Below, one piece after another: positions 938 to 13,807 of a stretch of DNA of 64,000 nucleotides (its first letter is position 1; every line of letters begins with the position of its first letter). Origin of the DNA: a virus (lineage: Duplodnaviria; Caudoviricetes); IMG/VR virus record IMGVR_UViG_3300010163_000005, positions 117,781-181,780 of that record; one strand, given 5' to 3'. The position numbers and the translations under genes are program-made. The notes below the pieces were generated by a model. The model did not search any database, had not been told where the DNA came from, and was given only the letters and a program-made list of their open reading frames with translations.

Positions 938-2566
938 TTAATCATTTTGAGTTATTTTAAGTAAATCATTTGTATTAAGATAATAGTTTTTATTTCGATA
1001 TACTTTATTATATTGTTCTTTTCCCTGAAATTCATCTACAACTTTTTGTTCCTCGGCAGGCATATCATCATATTTAACATTACCATAATAAGGGGGCAAC
1101 CAGTTTTTATTTTTACCTACATAAATATTAAATTTATCAATAAGTTCTTGGTTTGTAAATGTTATATGGCAAGTACCTTTTTTATAAAAAGTAACCTTAA
1201 AGAATTTACATTCAATATTTTTAGGATTGTTTTGAGATTCTTCAATAACATATTTTAAATCAACTTGTTTTGTCATATTACCGTCCAAATAATTCAATGT
1301 TTTTTCAATATCTTGTAATAAATCAAGAGCCTTAGAAACACAAAAATCCATACGATTACTAAAATATTGTTTTTCAAATGCATGACAAGGAATAATGACC
1401 TTATAGTTTATTTTATGAGCAATGTTTGTTTTCCAACCGTTATAATAATGAATATTACCATCACATTCAGGATAATAACTATATTTATGAGTTAATGTAT
1501 CAAATAAACTAACAATTGTTTCTTTTACTCCTTGTTGAATAGAAGCATTCATTTCAACAATAAGATTATTGATATTAAATTCATTAAAATCATACTCTTG
1601 CAATTTATCAACTTTTTCTCTGAATTCATCTTGCATATTACTTGTTAATTTTGACATAAACTTAGGATTAGAAAATAATGCTTTCCAATATTTTAATCTT
1701 ACTTTTTTTAAATAACAATTTACAGTAGCTGTATCATATTTATCATCAAATATTGTCAATTTTAATATAGGGTTTTCAAAATGCAAATCACTAACCATAT
1801 CAAAATTGATATGTTTTTCTAGTGTTTGATAATGCTTTATTAATTCTAAAGAAGATTTCACTTCTATATTAAAAAGTTGAACAGCTTTTTTAATATAATC
1901 ATCAATAATAATTTCTGTCTCGTCCTCTTTAGAACTATATTTGTATTCTTCTGCTTTTTGAAATTGCTCCCACCATGGATTTTCCTGTTGAGTAGCTTCA
2001 ATATGAATTTTTATTAATGCTACTTCTACATCAGTTTTTCTTTCCGCTTTAGAAAAAGTATCATTAATATATTTAATATCAGCATTATGCTTATTTAAAA
2101 TTTGCAATAACACTTTTCTTTTATTTGAATAAGGATTTTTAATTGTTTCAGCATTAAGAATACAAACAATGTCTCCTCCATTTTTTTGTAAATCTAATGC
2201 TTTTAAAAGATGTTCCTCTCCATCTTTAAATGGTGGATTCATTATGATTAAATCATATTTCTTAAACGGATTGAATGTTAAAAAATCGTCCCAAACAACT
2301 TTATATTGTTTGTTTTTTAAAATTGCCTGCAAATTTTTATCAATTTCAATACAATCCACATCCAAGTCAACATTTCTACAATAATAACTAATTATAGAAT
2401 TATATTTCTTCATAAGACTTTCCACTATATTACCTTTACCCGCAGACGGTTCAAGAACGCTTGCTACATATCTTAAATCCAAACCTTCAAGCATTTTATC
2501 AATTAATGCTTGCGGTGTTGGATAAAATTGATTGTCTTTCTCTGTATAATTTACCATATCATTCAT
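938..2566 (-). CDS. N6-adenine DNA methyltransferase with DUF4942-type C-terminal domain
   Basis: QFYPTP, VLEPSAGKG (motif I), IIMNPPF (motif IV), C-terminal FFKVTFYKKGTCHITF. Start moved to MNDMV (2566), which has an AAGGAG RBS; a promoter lies at 2603-2632. Confidence 0.88.
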   Translation of the reverse strand: MNDMVNYTEKDNQFYPTPQALIDKMLEGLDLRYVASVLEPSAGKGNIVESLMKKYNSIISYYCRNVDLDVDCIEIDKNLQAILKNKQYKVVWDDFLTFNPFKKYDLIIMNPPFKDGEEHLLKALDLQKNGGDIVCILNAETIKNPYSNKRKVLLQILNKHNADIKYINDTFSKAERKTDVEVALIKIHIEATQQENPWWEQFQKAEEYKYSSKEDETEIIIDDYIKKAVQLFNIEVKSSLELIKHYQTLEKHINFDMVSDLHFENPILKLTIFDDKYDTATVNCYLKKVRLKYWKALFSNPKFMSKLTSNMQDEFREKVDKLQEYDFNEFNINNLIVEMNASIQQGVKETIVSLFDTLTHKYSYYPECDGNIHYYNGWKTNIAHKINYKVIIPCHAFEKQYFSNRMDFCVSKALDLLQDIEKTLNYLDGNMTKQVDLKYVIEESQNNPKNIECKFFKVTFYKKGTCHITFTNQELIDKFNIYVGKNKNWLPPYYGNVKYDDMPAEEQKVVDEFQGKEQYNKVYRNKNYYLNTNDLLKITQND

Positions 2567-2656
2567 TTTAAACGCTCCTTTGTATATTTTTTTATTAATT
2601 ATATTATATAACAATTACTATAACTATGTCAACAATATTATTGTTTATTATACAAT

Positions 2657-4780: not shown

Positions 4781-5962
4781 TTAAGCTATCACTTTACATC
4801 TGGTCAGTTCAGTTTGTTTTACTGAATTAAATTCATTATGTGCTTTTACAGTACCTATAAGTTGATTTACATTATTTATACACTTGGTAGTTTTCCAAGT
4901 ATAAATATTTTTATTTTCATCAGTAAACTTATATACATATGTCATTCCAAATTCTGTCAGCCAACTTGTTATTTTTTTAGTATCAATAACAGTAATTGTT
5001 ATACGATCTTTTATATTTCCAACATGTTGAGAAATTAATTTTTGCTTTCGTTGTTGTTGTATTTGCTGTATTCTTTCATTTTCAGTTTCTATTGCTCTTG
5101 TATAAGTAGGAATTAAACTTACTAATATACCTATATTATTAAAGGTTATATAAGGTGTCTCACATACAACCCTTAAATTGTTCATATAGTTATTAATTAC
5201 TTGTTGTTTTTTAAGCCACTCTAAGGCTTTAGCTGACAAATTAACCGCATAATTAGATTTATAATTAAAATTAACTTTTTGCATTAACTCTTTTATATAT
5301 TTTTCATCAACTCCGATTGGAATATTATTATCAATATAATAAAACTTCTCTGTCATATTTCTTGTAGAATCTGCATTACCAGATTTAACATAACCAAAAT
5401 GTCTAACTGTTTCAGCGGCATATTGCAAAACAATTTGTGTTTCAACGTAATATTGAGGATATGAATGTAAATTATCTATTGTTTCTCCCTGAATTAATGT
5501 ATCAAAACAACTGATGTATTCTGCTACACTTTCTGCACTCATACCATTTGTAAAATCTTTTAAGCAAGTCTTACCAACTTGTTTAAAATCACCTGTAACA
5601 ATATTATAAACCAAATATGTGAATTTTCTACGTCTATGGCTATTACAATGTTCACAAGAGGTATCTGTTGTATAGTATTTTTCTGGAACTTCAATATCAC
5701 AACATTTTTTTATAATGTTACCATTATCGGTATGTTCGATTACGCCGACAAACTGCCAATTATTAATTATTGCTTTACCTTCAACGTTTACAACAATGTA
5801 TTTTACAATTCGTTTGTTATGTCTTTCATCTTCCACTTCAACAAATTCTTCTCCTAACTTTTCATACAAAAAATAGTTTCCATATTTTTCACATTTACGC
5901 TTTATTCTGTTCAACTTTTTTTCAAGTCTTTCCATATTGCCCTCAAAGATTTTAAATTTCAT
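4781..5962 (-). CDS. Conserved phage/plasmid hypothetical protein (CxxC/C Zn site, C-terminal OB-fold-like segment)
   Basis: CEHC..HRRR...QVGKTCLKDF; C-terminal GTVKAHNEFNSVKQTELTRCKV; strong RBS and its own promoter. Confidence 0.7.
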   Translation of the reverse strand: MKFKIFEGNMERLEKKLNRIKRKCEKYGNYFLYEKLGEEFVEVEDERHNKRIVKYIVVNVEGKAIINNWQFVGVIEHTDNGNIIKKCCDIEVPEKYYTTDTSCEHCNSHRRRKFTYLVYNIVTGDFKQVGKTCLKDFTNGMSAESVAEYISCFDTLIQGETIDNLHSYPQYYVETQIVLQYAAETVRHFGYVKSGNADSTRNMTEKFYYIDNNIPIGVDEKYIKELMQKVNFNYKSNYAVNLSAKALEWLKKQQVINNYMNNLRVVCETPYITFNNIGILVSLIPTYTRAIETENERIQQIQQQRKQKLISQHVGNIKDRITITVIDTKKITSWLTEFGMTYVYKFTDENKNIYTWKTTKCINNVNQLIGTVKAHNEFNSVKQTELTRCKVIA

Positions 5963-6071
5963 ATCAATCGTCTCCTTCTATCTTAACGTATTTAGACTTT
6001 ATGTATATCTTTAACTTAATTATATTATATCAAATATTTAAAACTTTGTCAACAATTATTTTTAAAAAATA
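5956..6071 (-). repeat. 116-bp promoter-leader-RBS-start cassette, copy 1 (copy 2 at 57991-58106)
   Basis: 6 mismatches in 116 nt by manual alignment; contains TTGACA-17-TATAAT (6024-6052) and AAGGAG. Confidence 0.92.
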
Positions 6072-6115
6072 AAAAAATAGGTTAATTAATATATAATTAA
6101 CCTATTAGAAAAAGA

Positions 6116-8371
6116 TTACAGATATTCGCTTACAATAATGTCAATATCAAAAGGTGTAATAATAGTTTTATTTTTAAAATCATTTTCTTCTATATTAGTT
6201 TCTTCAATACTATTTTTTTCCATATGAGTTTTTTCTATATTATTTTCTACATCAAAAATAATGTTAGCACTTTCTTTATTATCTACCTTTATTCCTCTTA
6301 CTATAGCATTTAACTCAAATAAATCATATAAATTAGGTTTATTCATATTTACTATACTATAACAAGTTGCAATAACATTATTTAATTGACTTTCAACATT
6401 ATAAAGACAGTACTTATTATTATAATATAAATAATTCTCTAATGGCAATGATATATCACACCAAATAAATTCTTTTTTAACAAGATCAAAAATTACTGGG
6501 ACACAAGAAGCACTTTTCATTGTCAAGTCCATTTTTTGTTCTACTGTTTTTGGCTCATATATTTCACCTGAATTACAATCTCGTCTGTTCATCCACCCAA
6601 ACATAGCATTAGGTAATTCATTAAAATTATTACCATTAAAACTATATACTTGATAAACCACATAGCGTACTCCGTTATCAATGTTACTCTTTATATCAAT
6701 ATCAATAAATTCACTAACACCTACACCATTTGGATCTCCACCATTAGTTATATCTCCCGAATGATACGATTTATATAAATCAGATTTTAAATTAGTATAT
6801 GATATATGAGTTAAATATTGCCATTTTTCATCAAACATTACTGCCGACAAATCTAAATCTATTACATCTTTATTAAATGTATTAGTCCACCAAATAAACG
6901 CTCTTAATGTTGTAACTTGTTCATCAAGACTTACTCTTGAACCTTTTGTTATAGTTTTTAAAGCCTTACTTGCACTTCGTTGACTAAAAGGAATTATATA
7001 ATTCTTTAACTTTTCCGATATATATACATTACCTAATAGACTTCTGCCCTGATATTTACTCATTAAAGCATTTTTACATATTAAAACAATCATATTACAA
7101 TACTTATTTTCAATTTCTTTTAATGTATTATCAATATAATAACTTTTAGCCATATTACCTTTTGGAAAAAATACTCTATATTTTAAATTTTCATTTCTAT
7201 GTTCAAAATGATTTTTTACCTGCCATAAAACAGGTGTAGAAATTTGATTAGCAATAGTTTTAAAAATATCGACAATTAATTGTTTATCATCTATATTCCT
7301 TAATAAAAAGTCTAATTTTCTTGCAAATTCTCCTGGTCTATCTTTTAATATATTAACTAAATCTTTATACTTTTTATTAGCAATAAATGCTTCAACCTTG
7401 CTATTAAATGTTTCTATTTTTATGTTATTACGCAATTTATCAAAAGCCTTGACAACTTTGTCAAATTGTTTATATTCAAAAGGATGTAATTTTTCACCAA
7501 TACGAATCCATTTATTTTTATATCGTTTCATATCTTCTTCAATATTATTGCAATTATTTAACAACAATAATATTAATTTCCGCTCTTTACGTTTAAAGTT
7601 TCTATATTTAGTATTAGAAGCTAAACTAATATCTCCATTTGACATAGCCGTTATTAATCGCAATACATCTGTTGCTGTTTTAATAAATTTTGATATTTTA
7701 TTAAACGAATTTAAATTAGGCACACTATAACATTCTGAATTTAAAATATTAAATATTTCTTGATGATTTTCTATATATATTTTGAGGATAAAAGCAACAT
7801 TTTCCTTTAAAGGTATTTCGTTTGGCAACGAAATATCAACATTTTTAAAAATTTGTGATATATCTTCTTTATCAATATTAGACAAAGAAGTTTTAGATGT
7901 ACACAAATTATTAAATATATTATATATATCTGATATATTCCCTAAATCAATCATTTTTACTTTATCAATATCAAATAGAGGTAATCGTTCATCTTTTTGT
8001 TCATTAGGATATAAGTTTCCATTTGACCAATAATGAGCAATTGCATTAAAATATAATTCACTTTCTTCCCTGCTCATTATAGACATAGGAAAATTAGGAT
8101 ACATAGGATTATAAGTCACATTTGCTCCAACTAACTTTTTTAATATAGGAATTAAATTTAAATAAAAATTTTGTAACTCTTGTATGTTGTATGTACATAA
8201 TAAATCAACAACATTTTTAGATAAAGTATATCCTAATTTTTCTATATTTTTTAAAATAGTAGATATGTACTCTTTATAATCTAATGATGGATATACGCTT
8301 GAACCTAAAATTAATTTATTTTTTCTTCTTAATAAAATCTCATTTAATAAAAAATTATCTGCTATATTCAT
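6116..8371 (-). CDS. ROT/TROVE-like helical-repeat protein with C-terminal TerD domain (Prok-RING_4-type architecture, no obvious RING finger)
   Basis: N-terminal YNPMYPNFP; TATDVLR; KLHPFEY; RPGEFARKLD; TerD-like IDLDLSA...HSGDITNG...SEFIDID; GGAGG RBS. Confidence 0.78.
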   Translation of the reverse strand: MNIADNFLLNEILLRRKNKLILGSSVYPSLDYKEYISTILKNIEKLGYTLSKNVVDLLCTYNIQELQNFYLNLIPILKKLVGANVTYNPMYPNFPMSIMSREESELYFNAIAHYWSNGNLYPNEQKDERLPLFDIDKVKMIDLGNISDIYNIFNNLCTSKTSLSNIDKEDISQIFKNVDISLPNEIPLKENVAFILKIYIENHQEIFNILNSECYSVPNLNSFNKISKFIKTATDVLRLITAMSNGDISLASNTKYRNFKRKERKLILLLLNNCNNIEEDMKRYKNKWIRIGEKLHPFEYKQFDKVVKAFDKLRNNIKIETFNSKVEAFIANKKYKDLVNILKDRPGEFARKLDFLLRNIDDKQLIVDIFKTIANQISTPVLWQVKNHFEHRNENLKYRVFFPKGNMAKSYYIDNTLKEIENKYCNMIVLICKNALMSKYQGRSLLGNVYISEKLKNYIIPFSQRSASKALKTITKGSRVSLDEQVTTLRAFIWWTNTFNKDVIDLDLSAVMFDEKWQYLTHISYTNLKSDLYKSYHSGDITNGGDPNGVGVSEFIDIDIKSNIDNGVRYVVYQVYSFNGNNFNELPNAMFGWMNRRDCNSGEIYEPKTVEQKMDLTMKSASCVPVIFDLVKKEFIWCDISLPLENYLYYNNKYCLYNVESQLNNVIATCYSIVNMNKPNLYDLFELNAIVRGIKVDNKESANIIFDVENNIEKTHMEKNSIEETNIEENDFKNKTIITPFDIDIIVSEYL

Positions 8372-8387
8372 AAAATCCTCCTAAAAA

Positions 8388-8454
8388 AGAAATTAGCAAC
8401 AGTAACTCTATGTTTTCAACTTAATTGATCAAAGAAGGAACTGTTGCTATAGCC
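8388..8454 (-). ncRNA. Y-RNA-like structured RNA, unit 3
   Basis: GG-CUA-UAGCAACAGU-UCCUUCUU...ACUGUUGCUA-AUUU-CU; perfect 10-bp stem. Confidence 0.75.
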
Positions 8455-8465
8455 TTTATATAACA

Positions 8466-8569
8466 AAATGGGAATTACAAAACCTATAAGTATTTCTCAA
8501 AATACGACTAGGAAAATCAAAATATGATTCGCCTAGTAACAAAGAAGGAAGGCTTTAGTATAACCATTT
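8466..8569 (-). ncRNA. Y-RNA-like structured RNA, unit 2
   Basis: AAAUGG-UUA-UACUAAAGCCU-UCCUUCUU...two inner hairpins...AGGUUUUGUA-AUUC-CCAUUU. Confidence 0.75.
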
Positions 8570-8576
8570 ATTTTAA

Positions 8577-8651
8577 ATAGGCAATTAAATATTCTATTTA
8601 TACTTACTACATTTGTAATCATTAGAAGAAGGAAGAATATTTATATCCTAT
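8577..8651 (-). ncRNA. Y-RNA-like structured RNA, unit 1
   Basis: AUAGG-AUA-UAAAUAUUCU-UCCUUCUU...AGAAUAUUUA-AUUG-CCUAU; begins at the predicted TSS. Confidence 0.75.
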
Positions 8652-8660
8652 ATAAAAACT

Positions 8661-8689
8661 ATTATACTACATAATAATCTTTATGTCAA
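8661..8689 (-). promoter_or_regulatory. sigmaA promoter driving the ncRNA array and the TROVE-TerD gene
   Basis: TTGACA 8684-8689, 17 nt, TATAAT 8661-8666; predicted TSS ~8654. Confidence 0.85.
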
Positions 8690-9109
8690 CTATAATTTTT
8701 ATAAAATGATTTTAAAAATAAAAACACCATAGAATAATATTTTCTATAATATATTTATTGTAATTTATAGTAATATTTAATATTTTACTTAACTCTCTCC
8801 CTCTCTTTTATAAATTATTTAACAACCCATTTGTCAATATATGGCATATTTTTTATCTATCTTTTTTAATTCTTCTGTTTTCTTTTGTGATGAATATACT
8901 CCTTGTACAAATAAATCACCCATACAACCCCACATTATTACATATATATTTTTATTAATCCTCTCCTTTTTATAAAAATTTTCCTATCTCTTAATATTAA
9001 TTATATTATAATAAATAATTTTAATATTGCCAATAATTTGTAAAAAATAAAAACACCACAGATAAACACGTCCGTGATGCCTCTATATTAATAAGATCTT
9101 ATTACTTAT

Positions 9110-9480
9110 CTAATACATTTTTTTAATGCAATTATTTGCTAAATATATGATTTTTTTAATTATATATTTATGTTTCAACATAATTTTTTTAAAATAAATT
9201 CTCATTTCCTCTCTTGAAATTATTTTATTTAAAGTTTTTCCATTTGAAGTAACCTTTACCCAATGAGTTTCTTTACATATTTTATTTCTTAACGCCAAGC
9301 TGTATATATGCCAAAAATTTCAAAACCCTGTTCTGATAAGTTTTTTATATTGTTATCATTATTTATTTTGTCTATTGATTTTTCATCATATTCTAAATTA
9401 TAAGAATTATTAAAATTGTAATAAACTTCTGTTACAAAAGGGCCATACTCCTATGCAATAATATTTTCATCACTCTAAAT
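9110..9480 (-). pseudogene. Panacea/SocA (DUF4065-like) antitoxin pseudogene
   Basis: DENIIA*EYGPFVTEVY (TAG at the conserved Trp), then FGIYTAW, a frameshift, and ALRNKICKETHW...IISREEMRIYFK. Confidence 0.65.
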
Positions 9481-9562
9481 ACCACAAATAATTAAAAATA
9501 AATAATAATTTTATATTAGCTATTATCAATTCTATATAATACATTAATACTTATATACTTTA

Positions 9563-9805
9563 TTATTTATCTAATTTATATCTTTCCCAATCCAAAGTGG
9601 TAACATATAAAGTTGTTTTACATTTTGAACAATAAGTTATCTTAAACCTATCATTATCATTTGTTAATAAATTCCATTTATGATTACATTTTGTTGTATC
9701 TTCTAATTGTTCTATACTATCTATTGAAAAATAATATACCAAAAAAAGTGACATAAAAAATAAAAATAAGATTATCATAATAATTGCTAAAATTTTTTTA
9801 CTCAT
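9563..9805 (-). CDS. Small membrane-anchored protein with Cys/His motif
   Basis: N-terminal TM helix, C.H.W...CSKC. Confidence 0.55.
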   Translation of the reverse strand: MSKKILAIIMIILFLFFMSLFLVYYFSIDSIEQLEDTTKCNHKWNLLTNDNDRFKITYCSKCKTTLYVTTLDWERYKLDK

Positions 9806-9832
9806 AAAATCTCTCCAATATCCATTATAAAA

Positions 9833-10612
9833 TTATTTTATGTATTTAAATAATTTTTCCGTTGTTCTACTTTTATCATTAACTTTTATACTTCTACTTA
9901 TTTCTTTTTCCCATATACATTCAAAATCATTGGGAGCAGTCAATTCACTTATAAAAACTATATTATTTTTAGAATACTCTCTCATTACTTGCCAAAATTC
10001 ATCATAGTTAAATTCTAATGAATTTTTAAATTGTTTTGTGTTATTATAGGGTGGATCACAATATATAACACAATTATGTAAATCATAATTATCTCTATAA
10101 TCTTTAACTTGAAAAATAATATCTTTTAGATTAGATGCTTGATTTAATAAATTATTTTTAGCTTCGTTATAATAATTTCTAAATCTCAATCCATTCTTTG
10201 TTTTTTCATAACCGCTTTTTGCATAACCACCATCAAAAAACCTACCATTAAAAGATGCTAAAAATCCGATATTACCTATTTCCCAATCTTCAAAAATAGG
10301 AACATCTTTTATGTTATCTTTTTTAAATTGTTCATTTTTCAAATTCATATAATAAAAACTTCTTGCTTTATCATATAATTCTTTAGGTACACTTTCATAT
10401 AAAAGTTTATCGTCTTGAACATATTGCAATAAAGCAATTAAATATTTATTTAAATCATAACCATATTTTTTATTACAATGTATTTTATCAATAACATTCG
10501 CTCCACCTACAAAAAGTTCATAATATTCTGTAATATTATTATCATCTATATATTGCTGAATAATAGGAACTATATATTTAGCAATCCTTGATTTACTACC
10601 CATATACTTCAT
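9833..10612 (-). CDS. Dam-like (D12 class) DNA adenine methyltransferase
   Basis: MKYMGSKSR, YELFVGGAN, IYCDPPY. Confidence 0.9.
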   Translation of the reverse strand: MKYMGSKSRIAKYIVPIIQQYIDDNNITEYYELFVGGANVIDKIHCNKKYGYDLNKYLIALLQYVQDDKLLYESVPKELYDKARSFYYMNLKNEQFKKDNIKDVPIFEDWEIGNIGFLASFNGRFFDGGYAKSGYEKTKNGLRFRNYYNEAKNNLLNQASNLKDIIFQVKDYRDNYDLHNCVIYCDPPYNNTKQFKNSLEFNYDEFWQVMREYSKNNIVFISELTAPNDFECIWEKEISRSIKVNDKSRTTEKLFKYIK

Positions 10613-11962: not shown

Positions 11963-12784
11963 CTAATTTTGTTTATTTAAAAAATTAGTAAATAAATCAA
12001 ACATTTCATTTGTTTGCTTTGTTTGTTTTTGTTCCATTAAAGGTAAAATGTTATCTTTCTTTAATGTTTCATAAATAAACAATCTACCTTTTTGTGTCCA
12101 ATATGTACAAACATTACTTTGTTTACTGCCTTGTGAATTTTTACAAACATTAGTTTTTGTACTTGTATAACCCTTACTTGCATATTGTTTATATAGTAAC
12201 CATATATTTCCTTGTTTGTATTGTATTTGTTTATCTTTTAACATTTTATTCATTTGTTGAGCTGTCATACCATAATCTTTGGCTATTATATTTATTGGTA
12301 TTAAATCTTTGCATTGTAAAACTAAATCATAATAATCAGCCTTTGGTTTCATTATTTTTATCTCTTTATTTTGTTGCTTAATTGTGTCTCTTTGTTTTTT
12401 ATTTTTAGATGTTAATGAATCAATAGTTTTATTTGCTAAAATTAAAGCCCTTGCCATAACTTTTTCAGGAGTATTCCAATCCTTTTGAACTTTAATAAAA
12501 TATTGACGTGCTTGTTTGCCTCTTTCATTACGTTGTATCATTGATAATTCCTTTGCCATATCTAATTTTATAGCGTGGTCTATTGCAGGTCTGCCACCTT
12601 TTGAGTTTTCGTCATTTTTGACGAAAACCTCTGTAAAGTCTATATTTTCAATAAAACCATATTCAATCATTCTTGAAAACCATTTTGCATATTCTGTTCC
12701 AATTCCTAAAAACTCATGTAACATTCTGCCGCTTACGATAGGTTCCTGATTATCATTTAATTCTACTTTAATTAATTCTTTCAT
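11963..12784 (-). CDS. Phage antirepressor (AntA/AntB N-terminus plus KilAC)
   Basis: VSGRMLHEFL...WF.RM.EYGF...DHAIKLDMAKELSM; KPKADYYD; WTQKGRLFIYE. Confidence 0.92.
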   Translation of the reverse strand: MKELIKVELNDNQEPIVSGRMLHEFLGIGTEYAKWFSRMIEYGFIENIDFTEVFVKNDENSKGGRPAIDHAIKLDMAKELSMIQRNERGKQARQYFIKVQKDWNTPEKVMARALILANKTIDSLTSKNKKQRDTIKQQNKEIKIMKPKADYYDLVLQCKDLIPINIIAKDYGMTAQQMNKMLKDKQIQYKQGNIWLLYKQYASKGYTSTKTNVCKNSQGSKQSNVCTYWTQKGRLFIYETLKKDNILPLMEQKQTKQTNEMFDLFTNFLNKQN

Positions 12785-13264: not shown

Positions 13265-13807
13265 TTATTTTATCTTTTTTTCTACCGTTACTATTGTATC
13301 ATTATGCCAACCACCATGAGCCACTAATAAAATTTCTTGTATTTCAAAACCATATTTCTTACCTATCCCACCGCTATTCCAACAACAACTAATTACTATG
13401 CCATCTTTTTTAACTATTCTTCCTATCTCTTTTTTTTGTTTTGTCCAATAAGAAGATTGTGTTGTTGCTTTATTTACAGTTTTATCCAGTTTTTTATAAC
13501 ATTCTACTACCTGACGTGATGAATATGGAGGATCATACAATACTAAATTTATTGAGTTATTATCAAAAGTTTTTAAAAAATCAGTAGCATCTAAATGATA
13601 GTTAGTATTATAATTTTTATCTAAATCATTAGTTATTTTTGCTATCTTACTGTTATTAGCAAAAGGATCAATACTAATTAAATTACCCGCTCCAAATTCA
13701 TTTATTAACATTTGATTGTATTTTTTTATTAGTTTTTCTATGGGTTTTATGCTAAATGTATTTTTATTTGGCATACTCCAAACCCTATTAATCTTCATTT
13801 TTATCAC
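13265..13807 (-). CDS. Small phage adenine-specific DNA methyltransferase
   Basis: RVWSMPNKNTF, IDPFAN, VLYDPPYS.RQ, HGGWHNDTI. Confidence 0.85.
   Translation of the reverse strand: MIKMKINRVWSMPNKNTFSIKPIEKLIKKYNQMLINEFGAGNLISIDPFANNSKIAKITNDLDKNYNTNYHLDATDFLKTFDNNSINLVLYDPPYSSRQVVECYKKLDKTVNKATTQSSYWTKQKKEIGRIVKKDGIVISCCWNSGGIGKKYGFEIQEILLVAHGGWHNDTIVTVEKKIK

What the first reader, a model, noticed from the sequence alone, without database searches (positions are those of the whole stretch)
6116..8689. Array of three covarying Y-RNA-like ncRNAs co-transcribed with a TROVE-like/TerD protein
Seen in sequence: between a perfect sigmaA promoter (TSS ~8654) and the 751-aa gene lie three back-to-back units sharing one architecture on the minus strand. 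Each has 5'-GG, an internal loop NUA, a 10-bp stem starting UA, an invariant UCCUUCUU, a variable loop (with or without inner hairpins), the complementary strand, then AUUN-CC/CU-3'. The stems differ in sequence but keep their pairing (UAAAUAUUCU/AGAAUAUUUA; UAC(U)AAAGCCU/AGGUUUUGUA; UAGCAACAGU/ACUGUUGCUA), which is covariation rather than simple repetition. Unit 1 starts at the predicted TSS and unit 3 ends a few nt before the RBS. Established: the Prok-RING_4-type architecture has ROT/TROVE-like repeats plus a C-terminal TerD domain. Ro60/TROVE proteins bind Y RNAs, whose 5' and 3' ends pair into a bulged stem beside a pyrimidine-rich loop and which are encoded next to the ro gene. Inference: a mobile-element-encoded ribonucleoprotein with a set of interchangeable RNA partners (constant protein-binding handle, variable effector loop), possibly for RNA repair/decoy, stress response or counter-defence.
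Basis: partly seen in the sequence, partly recalled or inferred. Interest (0 to 1): 0.92.

Follow-up and report, generated by a model that had tools for sequence, protein, structure and literature searches.

The report
Y-RNA-like array with Ro-like TerD protein
Three small folded RNAs ahead of a phage gene belong to a widespread RNA family, absent from Rfam, that always sits beside one protein with a Ro60-like helical domain, so the pair probably forms an RNA-protein particle on the plan of Ro60 with its Y RNAs.

Summary
On the minus strand, a 12/12 sigma-70 promoter (8689-8661) is followed by three units (8648-8580, 8565-8470, 8454-8388), an RBS, a 751-aa gene and a terminator.

All three units share one "handle": GG-N-UA, a 10-bp helix, UCCUUCU, a variable loop, then AUUN-CC.

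A covariance model built from six units found about 360 more copies in 118 loci that encode homologues of the protein. All but one weak match lie on the gene's strand, directly upstream and/or downstream of the gene. The helix covaries strongly.

In at least 11 loci, one long unit carries a YrlA-type tRNA-like domain in its loop.

For the protein's N-terminal 465 residues, the two best structural matches among 48,161 solved chains are Ro60 proteins (Z 9.7 and 9.5). A TerD domain stands where Ro60 has its vWA domain.

Best reading (about 0.7): a Ro60/Y-RNA-like particle with a constant RNA handle and exchangeable loops. Binding, RNA processing and function were not tested.

I found the motif neither in Rfam 15 nor in the papers searched. 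This scan had already noted the same system in at least 17 other genomes.

Rating: new variant of a known kind.

The parts
8661..8689 (-). Sigma-70-type promoter TTGACA-17 nt-TATAAT; expected start near 8654
   Evidence: 12 of 12 consensus matches. A terminator-like hairpin of the preceding gene lies at 9086-9047.
8580..8648 (-). Unit 1 (69 nt): handle plus a loop holding a short hairpin
   Evidence: R1 73.7 bits, E 2e-14 (this unit was a seed of R1). The centroid fold gives the GG/CC clamp and the 10-bp stem.
8470..8565 (-). Unit 2 (96 nt): handle with one bulged U in the stem; the loop holds two hairpins
   Evidence: R1 36.8 bits, E 1.6e-5; not a seed sequence. Fold -23 kcal/mol, z -3.9.
8388..8454 (-). 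Unit 3 (67 nt): handle ending in a G-U clamp (CU); it ends 5 nt before the RBS
   Evidence: R1 69.9 bits, E 2e-13 (this unit was a seed of R1). Fold z -3.7.
8376..8382 (-). Ribosome-binding site AGGAGGA, 4 nt before the ATG
   Evidence: Read from the sequence.
6116..8371 (-). 751-aa protein: helical-repeat domain with a Ro60/TROVE-like fold (about 1-465), TerD beta-sandwich (about 473-640), C-terminal alpha/beta part
   Evidence: AF2 pLDDT 92.3. TerD Z 16.1. Ro60 Z 9.7 and 9.5, ranks 1 and 2 of 48,161 chains. NF041916 partial hit and phrog_33734.
6069..6106 (-). Intrinsic terminator: perfect 13-bp hairpin followed by U7
   Evidence: Fold -13.5 kcal/mol, z -4.65. The next gene's own 12/12 promoter lies at 6052-6024.

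Best explanation
The cassette encodes a ribonucleoprotein built on the plan of Ro60 with its Y RNAs. One promoter transcribes three small RNAs and the mRNA of a 751-aa protein. That protein has an N-terminal helical domain folded like the Ro60 (TROVE) ring, followed by a TerD domain where Ro60 has its vWA domain. Each RNA carries the same handle. The handle is a 2-bp GG/CC clamp, an asymmetric internal loop (NUA opposite AUUN), and a 10-bp helix whose middle seven pairs are free to vary. The helix is capped by conserved C-G and U-A pairs and a single-stranded UCCUUCU(A). Inferred: the protein reads the two conserved ends of this fixed-length helix. Inferred: the units are released from the transcript by cuts in the 14-15-nt AU-rich spacers. 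Inferred: the variable loops are exchangeable adaptors that bring other RNAs or enzymes to the protein. These loops are hairpins here and tRNA mimics in relatives. The likely field of action is RNA surveillance, decay or repair during infection, as for Ro60/Y RNA. Shown: the RNA family, its covariation, its strict linkage to the gene, the YrlA-type domain in some members, and the fold similarity. Not shown: binding, processing and function.
For: Linkage: R1 found 91 matches (E<1) in 45 sources and 271 (E<0.1) in 73 viral loci. All are on the gene's strand except one weak hit, and they cluster directly before and/or after the gene. My own regex-plus-pairing scan gave 309 on the gene's strand against 8 poor matches on the other strand. 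Genome-wide specificity: in five whole records totalling about 4 Mb, 14 of 15 hits lie inside the gene's locus. In the window's complete genome the only significant hits are these three units. Covariation: on 116 units, 96.7% of cells pair, 436 cells change on both sides, and the covariation score is 0.827 against 0.186 when shuffled and at most 0.19 when slid. With units picked by sequence anchors alone, the seven variable pairs match 6.28 of 7 against 3.22 when partners are swapped. Kinship with Y RNAs: long units in L049, L056, L027, L034, L096, L042, L063, L046, L030 and L061 hit Rfam YrlA at 36-44 bits (E 1e-6 to 3e-4) through T-arm, acceptor-like hairpin and D-arm. Protein: Ro60 of D. 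radiodurans (Z 9.7, 267 aa) and of Thermus phage phiLo (Z 9.5, 234 aa, rmsd 3.6) are ranks 1 and 2 and the only Z>=8 among 48,161 chains. In BFVD the first match outside the protein's own family is a TROVE protein. Five Ro60 entries align over more than 290 residues of the full model. Context: 244 tRNA/tmRNA genes lie in the flanks of 38 of 113 loci, all on the gene's strand. The rare core variant UUACUUCU is shared by all units of L027 (6 of 6) and L101 (3 of 3), as expected for a common reader. Precedent: canonical phage Ro60 binds two Y-like RNAs encoded upstream of its gene (PMC12135203), and YrlA lies within 4 kb of rsr on the same strand (PMC4201824).
Against: There is no sequence-level link to TROVE. 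Z of 9-10 is modest for helical repeats, and the tool warns that values below about 13 may reflect only a common arrangement. The Ro60-binding motif GNCGAA is absent from the handle and not enriched in the loops. The window's own units lack the tRNA-like domain and match no Rfam family. YrlA hits in relatives stay below the gathering score of 69 bits. This phage has no detectable RtcB, Rnl2-type ligase or nearby tRNA array, so the RNA-repair context is not seen here. A search for protein columns that change together with the UUACUUCU handle variant found nothing above control.
Confidence: 0.7

Rival explanations
1. Cis-acting leader only. The three hairpins regulate the downstream gene, for example because UCCUUCU acts as an anti-Shine-Dalgarno sequence that masks AGGAGGA, or as autoregulatory operator sites bound by the protein. 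No free RNAs would be made.
For: In this window all units lie in the 5' leader. The minimum-free-energy fold of the whole leader pairs the UCCUUCU of unit 2 with the RBS. UCCUUCU can pair with AGGAGGA through one G-U pair (read from the sequence).
Against: In many loci the units lie only downstream, or on both sides, for example L045 and L049 with 4+4 and L006, L009 and L012 with downstream units only. Some units carry a 95-nt tRNA-like domain. The core is invariant across hosts from Clostridia to cyanobacteria and Lentisphaeria MAGs. An orphan unit lies 145 kb from the gene in one phage. The centroid fold of the leader keeps the three units and leaves the RBS free. A feedback role in addition to the particle is not excluded.
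Confidence: 0.12
2. The RNAs act without the neighbouring protein. They would be phage small RNAs that are processed like tRNAs and act on a host factor, for instance as sponges for a pyrimidine-binding protein, as ribosome or SD decoys, or as decoys for tRNA-targeting nucleases. They would sit next to the gene only because both belong to one expression module.
For: A third of the loci sit inside tRNA gene arrays on the same strand. The core resembles the pyrimidine-rich 3' tail of 16S rRNA (my own recollection, not tested). There is no direct evidence of binding to the TerD-type protein.
Against: The linkage holds down to 22-27% protein identity (L108, L113-L115) and in loci without any tRNA gene, including this window. 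In whole genomes the units are found almost only at the gene. The protein fold points to an RNA-binding ring.
Confidence: 0.13
3. A type III toxin-antitoxin-like module, in which a repeat array of antitoxin RNAs is processed by, and neutralises, the adjacent protein.
For: A tandem array of RNA units sits directly upstream of, and is co-transcribed with, a protein gene.
Against: The units differ in sequence and length and keep only the handle, whereas ToxI-type repeats are near-identical. The protein shows no nuclease fold or family. Arrays also lie downstream of the gene.
Confidence: 0.03

Closest known systems
Bacterial and phage Ro60 (Rsr) with Y RNAs YrlA/YrlB (Rfam RF02553; Chen et al. 2014, PMC4201824; Thermus phage phiLo Ro60 with Yrl1/Yrl2, PMC12135203)
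   Same: Small structured RNAs are encoded beside the protein gene, on the same strand, with several per locus. Their 5' and 3' ends pair into a stem with an internal loop. The distal module is variable and in some members is the same permuted tRNA-like domain (T-arm, acceptor-like hairpin, D-arm). The protein has a helical-repeat domain whose best structural matches are Ro60. Both systems occur in large phages near tRNA genes.
   Different: The protein has no sequence similarity to TROVE. A TerD beta-sandwich takes the place of the vWA/MIDAS domain. The RNA handle is different: GGCUAU-helix-CUUCCUUCUA...UAG-helix-RAUUUCC instead of the bulged helix with GNCGAA. Arrays reach 4+4 units on both sides of the gene. 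Most units, including all three in this window, lack the tRNA-like domain. No match reaches the Rfam threshold.
MXAN_6230/SCO0854 family RING-domain proteins (NCBIfam NF041916; Pfam Prok-RING_4, PF14447)
   Same: They share the helical domain and the TerD domain: NF041916 E 2.7e-116 over profile positions 382-754, and an ESM Atlas cluster with 98% Prok-RING_4 members matches the N-terminal model at TM 0.66.
   Different: The window protein has no RING finger and scores 389.8 bits against the cut-off of 600. It belongs to a RING-less branch annotated only as 'TerD family protein'. I found no paper that assigns an RNA partner to this family.
TerD proteins of the tellurite-resistance (Ter) system
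   Same: The fold matches (Z 16.1 to 3ibz, 159 aa, rmsd 2.5). The acidic DxDxS and SGD motifs are conserved (D505, D507, S538, G539, D540 are invariant in 118 sequences).
   Different: Here TerD is one domain of a 751-aa protein, not a stand-alone protein of about 190 aa. No other Ter genes are nearby. The Pfam score of 23.4 bits is just under the cut-off of 25.3.

Membership tests
Rfam YrlA (RF02553, Y RNA-like) | Match to the covariance model at or above the gathering score (69 bits) | tested here: not met
   The window units give no YrlA hit even at E<=10. Long units in related loci score 36-44 bits.
Rfam YrlA (RF02553, Y RNA-like) | tRNA-like domain: T-arm, acceptor-like stem-loop, D-arm | tested here: not met
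   It is absent from U1-U3. It is present in one long unit in each of at least 11 related loci, as shown in the alignment.
Rfam YrlA (RF02553, Y RNA-like) | GNCGAAN0-1G motif near the 5' end (proposed Rsr-binding site, PMC4201824) | tested here: not met
   The 5' part is GGCUAU-helix-CUUCCUUCU instead. GNCGAA occurs in 5 of 235 loops, no more often than in shuffles.
Rfam YrlA (RF02553, Y RNA-like) | Encoded within about 4 kb of the partner protein's gene, on the same strand | tested here: met
   Met with respect to the TerD-type gene, which is not a canonical Ro60.
Ro60 / TROVE (PF05731) | Sequence match to the TROVE profile | tested here: not met
   No hit for the protein, for 101 family members, for a family profile against PDB sequences, or anywhere in the phage genome.
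Ro60 / TROVE (PF05731) | HEAT-like helical-repeat ring fold | tested here: inconclusive
   2nvo_A Z 9.7 (267 aa, rmsd 6.3) and 9l5y_B Z 9.5 (234 aa, rmsd 3.6) are ranks 1 and 2 of 48,161 chains, and the next hit has Z 7.2. Foldseek gives probability 0.99 to 9l5y_B and 1.00 to a phage TROVE protein. Z is below the roughly 13 advised for helical repeats, and ring closure was not inspected.
Ro60 / TROVE (PF05731) | C-terminal vWA domain with MIDAS site | tested here: not met
   Residues 473-640 form a TerD beta-sandwich (Z 16.1).
Ro60 / TROVE (PF05731) | Binds Y RNA and misfolded RNA | not testable with these tools
   This needs pull-down, EMSA or a structure.
TerD (PF02342) | TerD fold with conserved acidic metal-binding motifs | tested here: met
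   Pfam 23.4 bits, just under the cut-off of 25.3. Structural Z 13-16 to five TerD structures. D505, D507, S538, G539, D540, E554 and D557 are invariant.
NF041916 MXAN_6230/SCO0854 RING-domain family | Score over the cut-off (600 bits) and an N-terminal RING finger | tested here: not met
   389.8 bits, and only profile positions 382-754 in the best stretch. No Prok-RING_4 or zinc-finger Pfam hit.
Type III toxin-antitoxin (ToxIN-like) | Near-identical tandem RNA repeats next to an endoribonuclease toxin | tested here: not met
   The units differ in stem, loop and length. No nuclease family or fold was found.

The most novel reading that the evidence does not exclude
A second lineage of Ro-like particles, unrelated to Ro60 in sequence. 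In it, a TROVE-shaped ring fused to a TerD domain is loaded with whole arrays of interchangeable Y-like RNAs that share an undescribed handle. It is common in large phages of gut Clostridia and other bacteria, where it redirects host RNA decay or repair, or protects tRNAs, during infection.
Probability: 0.55. Interest if true: 0.85.

Novelty: new variant of a known kind. Interest (0 to 1): 0.82.

Why it matters
Ro60 with its Y RNAs is one of the few ribonucleoprotein plans shared by animals, bacteria and phages, and its bacterial roles are still poorly understood. This looks like a parallel system.

- **Protein:** the family has thousands of members (3,800 hits at E<1e-20; 2,822 cluster representatives). 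It is annotated only as "TerD family protein".
- **RNA:** the family is absent from Rfam. Its handle is defined precisely enough to search for and to mutate.
- **Architecture:** a constant handle with exchangeable loops, in arrays of up to eight, suggests a programmable adaptor.
- **What it offers:** a testable function for a large share of unannotated intergenic sequence in big phages of the human gut; a new use of the TerD domain; and a natural experiment on which parts of the Ro/Y plan are essential.

Tried and rejected
- **Rfam:** searches of 5000-10000 at E<=10 and of the whole window at gathering score gave nothing for the units.
- **Sequence-level link to TROVE:** none from the Pfam scan of the protein, of 101 N-terminal domains, or from a family profile against PDB sequences.
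- **Sequencing runs:** none was listed for window 6116-8700, and no RNA holder was listed, so expression and processing could not be examined and read laying was not used.
- **Protein-RNA co-variation:** I looked for protein columns conserved in 93 homologues but changed in both L027 and L101, the two loci whose units all carry UUACUUCU. Only one column (T609) turned up, no more than in control pairs.
- **GNCGAA as a hidden Ro-binding motif in the loops:** not enriched. GGNGAA is enriched (23 against about 4) but remains unexplained.
- **RNA-repair context in this phage:** no RtcB, Rnl2-type RNA ligase or TROVE match in the 181,780-bp genome.
- **Literature:** eight searches (one search was a syntax error) found no description of these RNAs or of an RNA partner for this protein family. 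The library lacks most subscription journals.
- **Complex prediction:** not used, because it takes no RNA chain and two copies of the protein exceed its size limit.
Full report
**1. What is in the window**

The minus strand between 8700 and 6060 forms one self-contained cassette.
- A perfect sigma-70-type promoter, TTGACA-17-TATAAT, lies at 8689-8661. It follows the terminator-like hairpin of the preceding gene at 9086-9047.
- The expected start is near 8654. Three units follow: U1 8648-8580, U2 8565-8470 and U3 8454-8388. They are separated by AU-rich spacers of 14 and 15 nt.
- Five U residues after U3 comes AGGAGGA (8382-8376), then the ATG at 8371 of a 751-aa ORF that ends at 6116.
- A perfect 13-bp hairpin followed by U7 (6106-6069) ends the unit. 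The next gene has its own 12/12 promoter at 6052-6024.
- Single-sequence folding reproduces these stems.

**2. The motif is a real RNA family tied to this gene**

By eye, the same units stood upstream of homologous genes in a human-gut phage contig (L001, 44% protein identity, four units) and in a Bacillus mycoides plasmid (L003, 41%, three units), with different stem sequences.

I built covariance model R1 from six units (A3, 12 base pairs). U1 and U3 were among the seeds. I then searched 118 loci that encode homologues:
- 40 loci came from species genomes, mostly Lachnospiraceae, Coprococcus, Ruminococcus and Clostridium, but also a cyanobacterial and a Lentisphaeria MAG.
- 73 loci came from IMG/VR viral contigs, many of 100-460 kb.
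- R1 found 91 matches at E<1 in the first set and 271 at E<0.1 in the second.
- Every match except one weak hit (E 0.59) is on the gene's strand.
- The matches cluster in arrays directly before the start codon, directly after the stop codon, or both. L045 and L049 have up to four on each side.
- Homologues with only 22-27% identity (L108, L113-L115) also carry units.

A separate regex-plus-pairing scan of my own gave 309 units on the gene's strand against 8 poor matches on the other strand.

Whole-record searches show the same specificity:
- In the window's own genome, a complete 181,780-bp virus record with inverted terminal repeats, the only significant matches are U1-U3.
- In five other records totalling about 4 Mb, 14 of 15 matches fall inside the gene's locus. 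The exception is an orphan unit 145 kb from the gene in a 463-kb phage.

**3. Structure and covariation**

On 116 units aligned to the model:
- 96.7% of cells form standard pairs, and 436 cells differ from the commonest pair on both sides.
- The covariation score is 0.827, against 0.186 after shuffling and at most 0.19 when the partners are slid.

That alignment was fitted to the structure, so I repeated the test with units chosen by sequence anchors only (GGCUAU-N7-CUUCCUUCU, then AG-N7-R-N-Y-U-H-CC).
- The 5' anchor occurs 166 times on the gene's strand and never on the other strand.
- The seven free positions pair at 6.28 of 7, against 3.22 when partners are swapped between units (maximum 3.65 in 500 trials). 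There are 67 different heptamers.

The consensus is GGCUAU-N7-CUUCCUUCUA...(UU)AG-N7'-R-AUUUCC. Conservation sits at the two ends of a helix of fixed length, and the helix between them is free. This is what a protein that reads two sites one helical turn apart would produce (inference).

Median unit length is 70 nt, with a second class of 120-137 nt.

**4. Link to Y RNAs**

The long units carry a permuted tRNA-like module in their loop.
- In L049 5147-5272, the Rfam YrlA model aligns a T-arm (CAGGUUCGAGUCCUG), an acceptor-like hairpin and a D-arm (GUAGCUCAGUCGGUAGAGC).
- Such hits (36-44 bits, E 1e-6 to 3e-4, below the gathering score of 69) fall inside long units in L049, L056, L027, L034, L096, L042, L063, L046, L030 and L061.
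- This is the domain that defines bacterial YrlA (Chen et al. 2014, PMC4201824).
- The part of YrlA thought to bind Rsr, GNCGAAN0-1G, is replaced here by the new handle, and GNCGAA is not enriched in the loops.
- The window's three units have hairpin loops only and match no Rfam family.
- In 38 of 113 loci the gene and its units lie within tRNA arrays. All 244 tRNA/tmRNA genes in the flanks are on the gene's strand. This window is not such a case: its two tRNA genes are 24 kb away.

**5. The protein**

- Pfam sees only a sub-threshold TerD domain. NCBIfam gives a partial match to the MXAN_6230/SCO0854 RING family without the RING. PHROGs gives phrog_33734, of unknown function.
- The family is large: 3,800 hits at E<1e-20 and 2,822 representatives at 50% clustering.
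- An AlphaFold2 model built on 118 sequences is confident (pLDDT 92.3, pTM 0.91). It shows helical repeats to about residue 441, a beta-sandwich from 473 to 640, and a C-terminal alpha/beta part.
- The sandwich is TerD (Z 16.1 to 3ibz), with invariant acidic motifs.
- The N-terminal 465 residues were folded alone (pLDDT 93.4) and aligned to 48,161 solved chains without a Foldseek prefilter. The best two matches, and the only ones with Z>=8, are D. radiodurans Rsr (Z 9.7, 267 aa) and Thermus phage phiLo Ro60 (Z 9.5, 234 aa, rmsd 3.6). Xenopus Ro60 is at Z 6.7 over 268 aa. Other helical proteins align over only about 95 residues.
- Foldseek agrees: probability 0.99 to phiLo Ro60 and 1.00 to a phage TROVE protein, the first match outside the protein's own family in BFVD.
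- There is no sequence-level signal for TROVE, and Z of 9-10 is modest for repeat proteins. The fold claim is therefore supported but not proven.

**6. How it most likely works**

Shown:
- a conserved RNA family with a fixed handle and variable loops;
- strict genetic coupling to the protein;
- a YrlA-type domain in some members;
- a protein fold whose best match is Ro60.

Inferred:
- The units are co-transcribed with the gene and released at the AU-rich spacers.
- They bind the helical ring through the handle.
- Their loops act as adaptors or gates, as Y RNAs do when they tether Ro60 to PNPase. PMC12135203 reports this for a phage Ro60 with two upstream Y-like RNAs.
- TerD would replace the vWA/MIDAS domain as a metal-binding or ligand-binding module.

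A locus-wide change of the core to UUACUUCU in all units of L027 and of L101 fits a shared reader. I found no matching protein change.

The main rival is a purely cis-acting leader. It is supported only by the position of the units in this window and by one MFE pairing of UCCUUCU with the RBS. It is contradicted by the downstream arrays and the tRNA-like units. A feedback role on top of the particle remains possible.

**7. Novelty**

- The motif is not in Rfam 15.
- Eight full-text searches found no paper that describes these RNAs or an RNA partner for this protein family.
- The jumbo-phage survey of Iyer et al. (PMC7824862) mentions ROT/TROVE proteins and stand-alone TerD genes separately.
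- Earlier notes of this scan, which I read after forming my own view, report the same pairing in at least 17 other genomes and reached the same reading. I cite them as agreement, not as evidence.
- I rate the finding a new variant of a known kind (the Ro60/Y RNA plan). It is not a member of YrlA or TROVE, because defining features of both were tested and not met.

Noticed in passing
G004 (record of L098) C1:303484-303545, + strand: An orphan unit (R1 E 4.7e-5) lies 145 kb from the only copy of the TerD-type gene (448102-450294) in a 463-kb viral record.
   Followed up: partly
L034, L058-L064, L083, L097 (units after about 5230 compared with units before 3000): Upstream units have the top pair U-A (core UUCCUUCU). 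Downstream units in these loci have it flipped to A-U (AUCCUUCU). This suggests two unit classes that differ by position.
   Followed up: partly
L027 (6 units) and L101 (3 units): All units of these two loci carry UUACUUCU or AUACUUCU in place of the otherwise invariant UUCCUUCU. No matching protein substitution was found.
   Followed up: yes
Loops of 23 of 235 distinct units, e.g. window 8535-8530 (GGCGAA in U2) and L003 2058-2112: GGNGAA is enriched in the variable loops (23 against about 4 in shuffles), often as UUUGGCGAAAUAG just before the 3' strand. Its meaning is unknown.
   Followed up: partly
L001 808-1105; L034 and L083 466-865: Phage-borne tmRNA genes sit in the tRNA arrays just upstream of the unit arrays.
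   Followed up: no
L107, L109-L112, L116, L117: Distant homologues (about 25% identity, matching residues 125-628 only) have no detectable units, yet most have tRNA genes in their flanks on the same strand (seven each in L107, L109, L111, L116 and L117; two in L110; none found in L112).
   Followed up: no
window 938-2614, 9833-10612, 13265-13807 (all - strand) and 11963-12784: The cassette lies in an accessory region with at least three DNA methyltransferase genes and an Ant-type antirepressor. The next gene downstream (4781-5962, phrog_2319) has its own perfect promoter.
   Followed up: partly
L042 1124-1289 (-) and 1363-1615 (+): A Clostridiales-1 RNA (102 bits) and a T-box leader (104 bits) lie about 1.5 kb upstream of the homologous gene in a bacterial MAG contig.
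   Followed up: no
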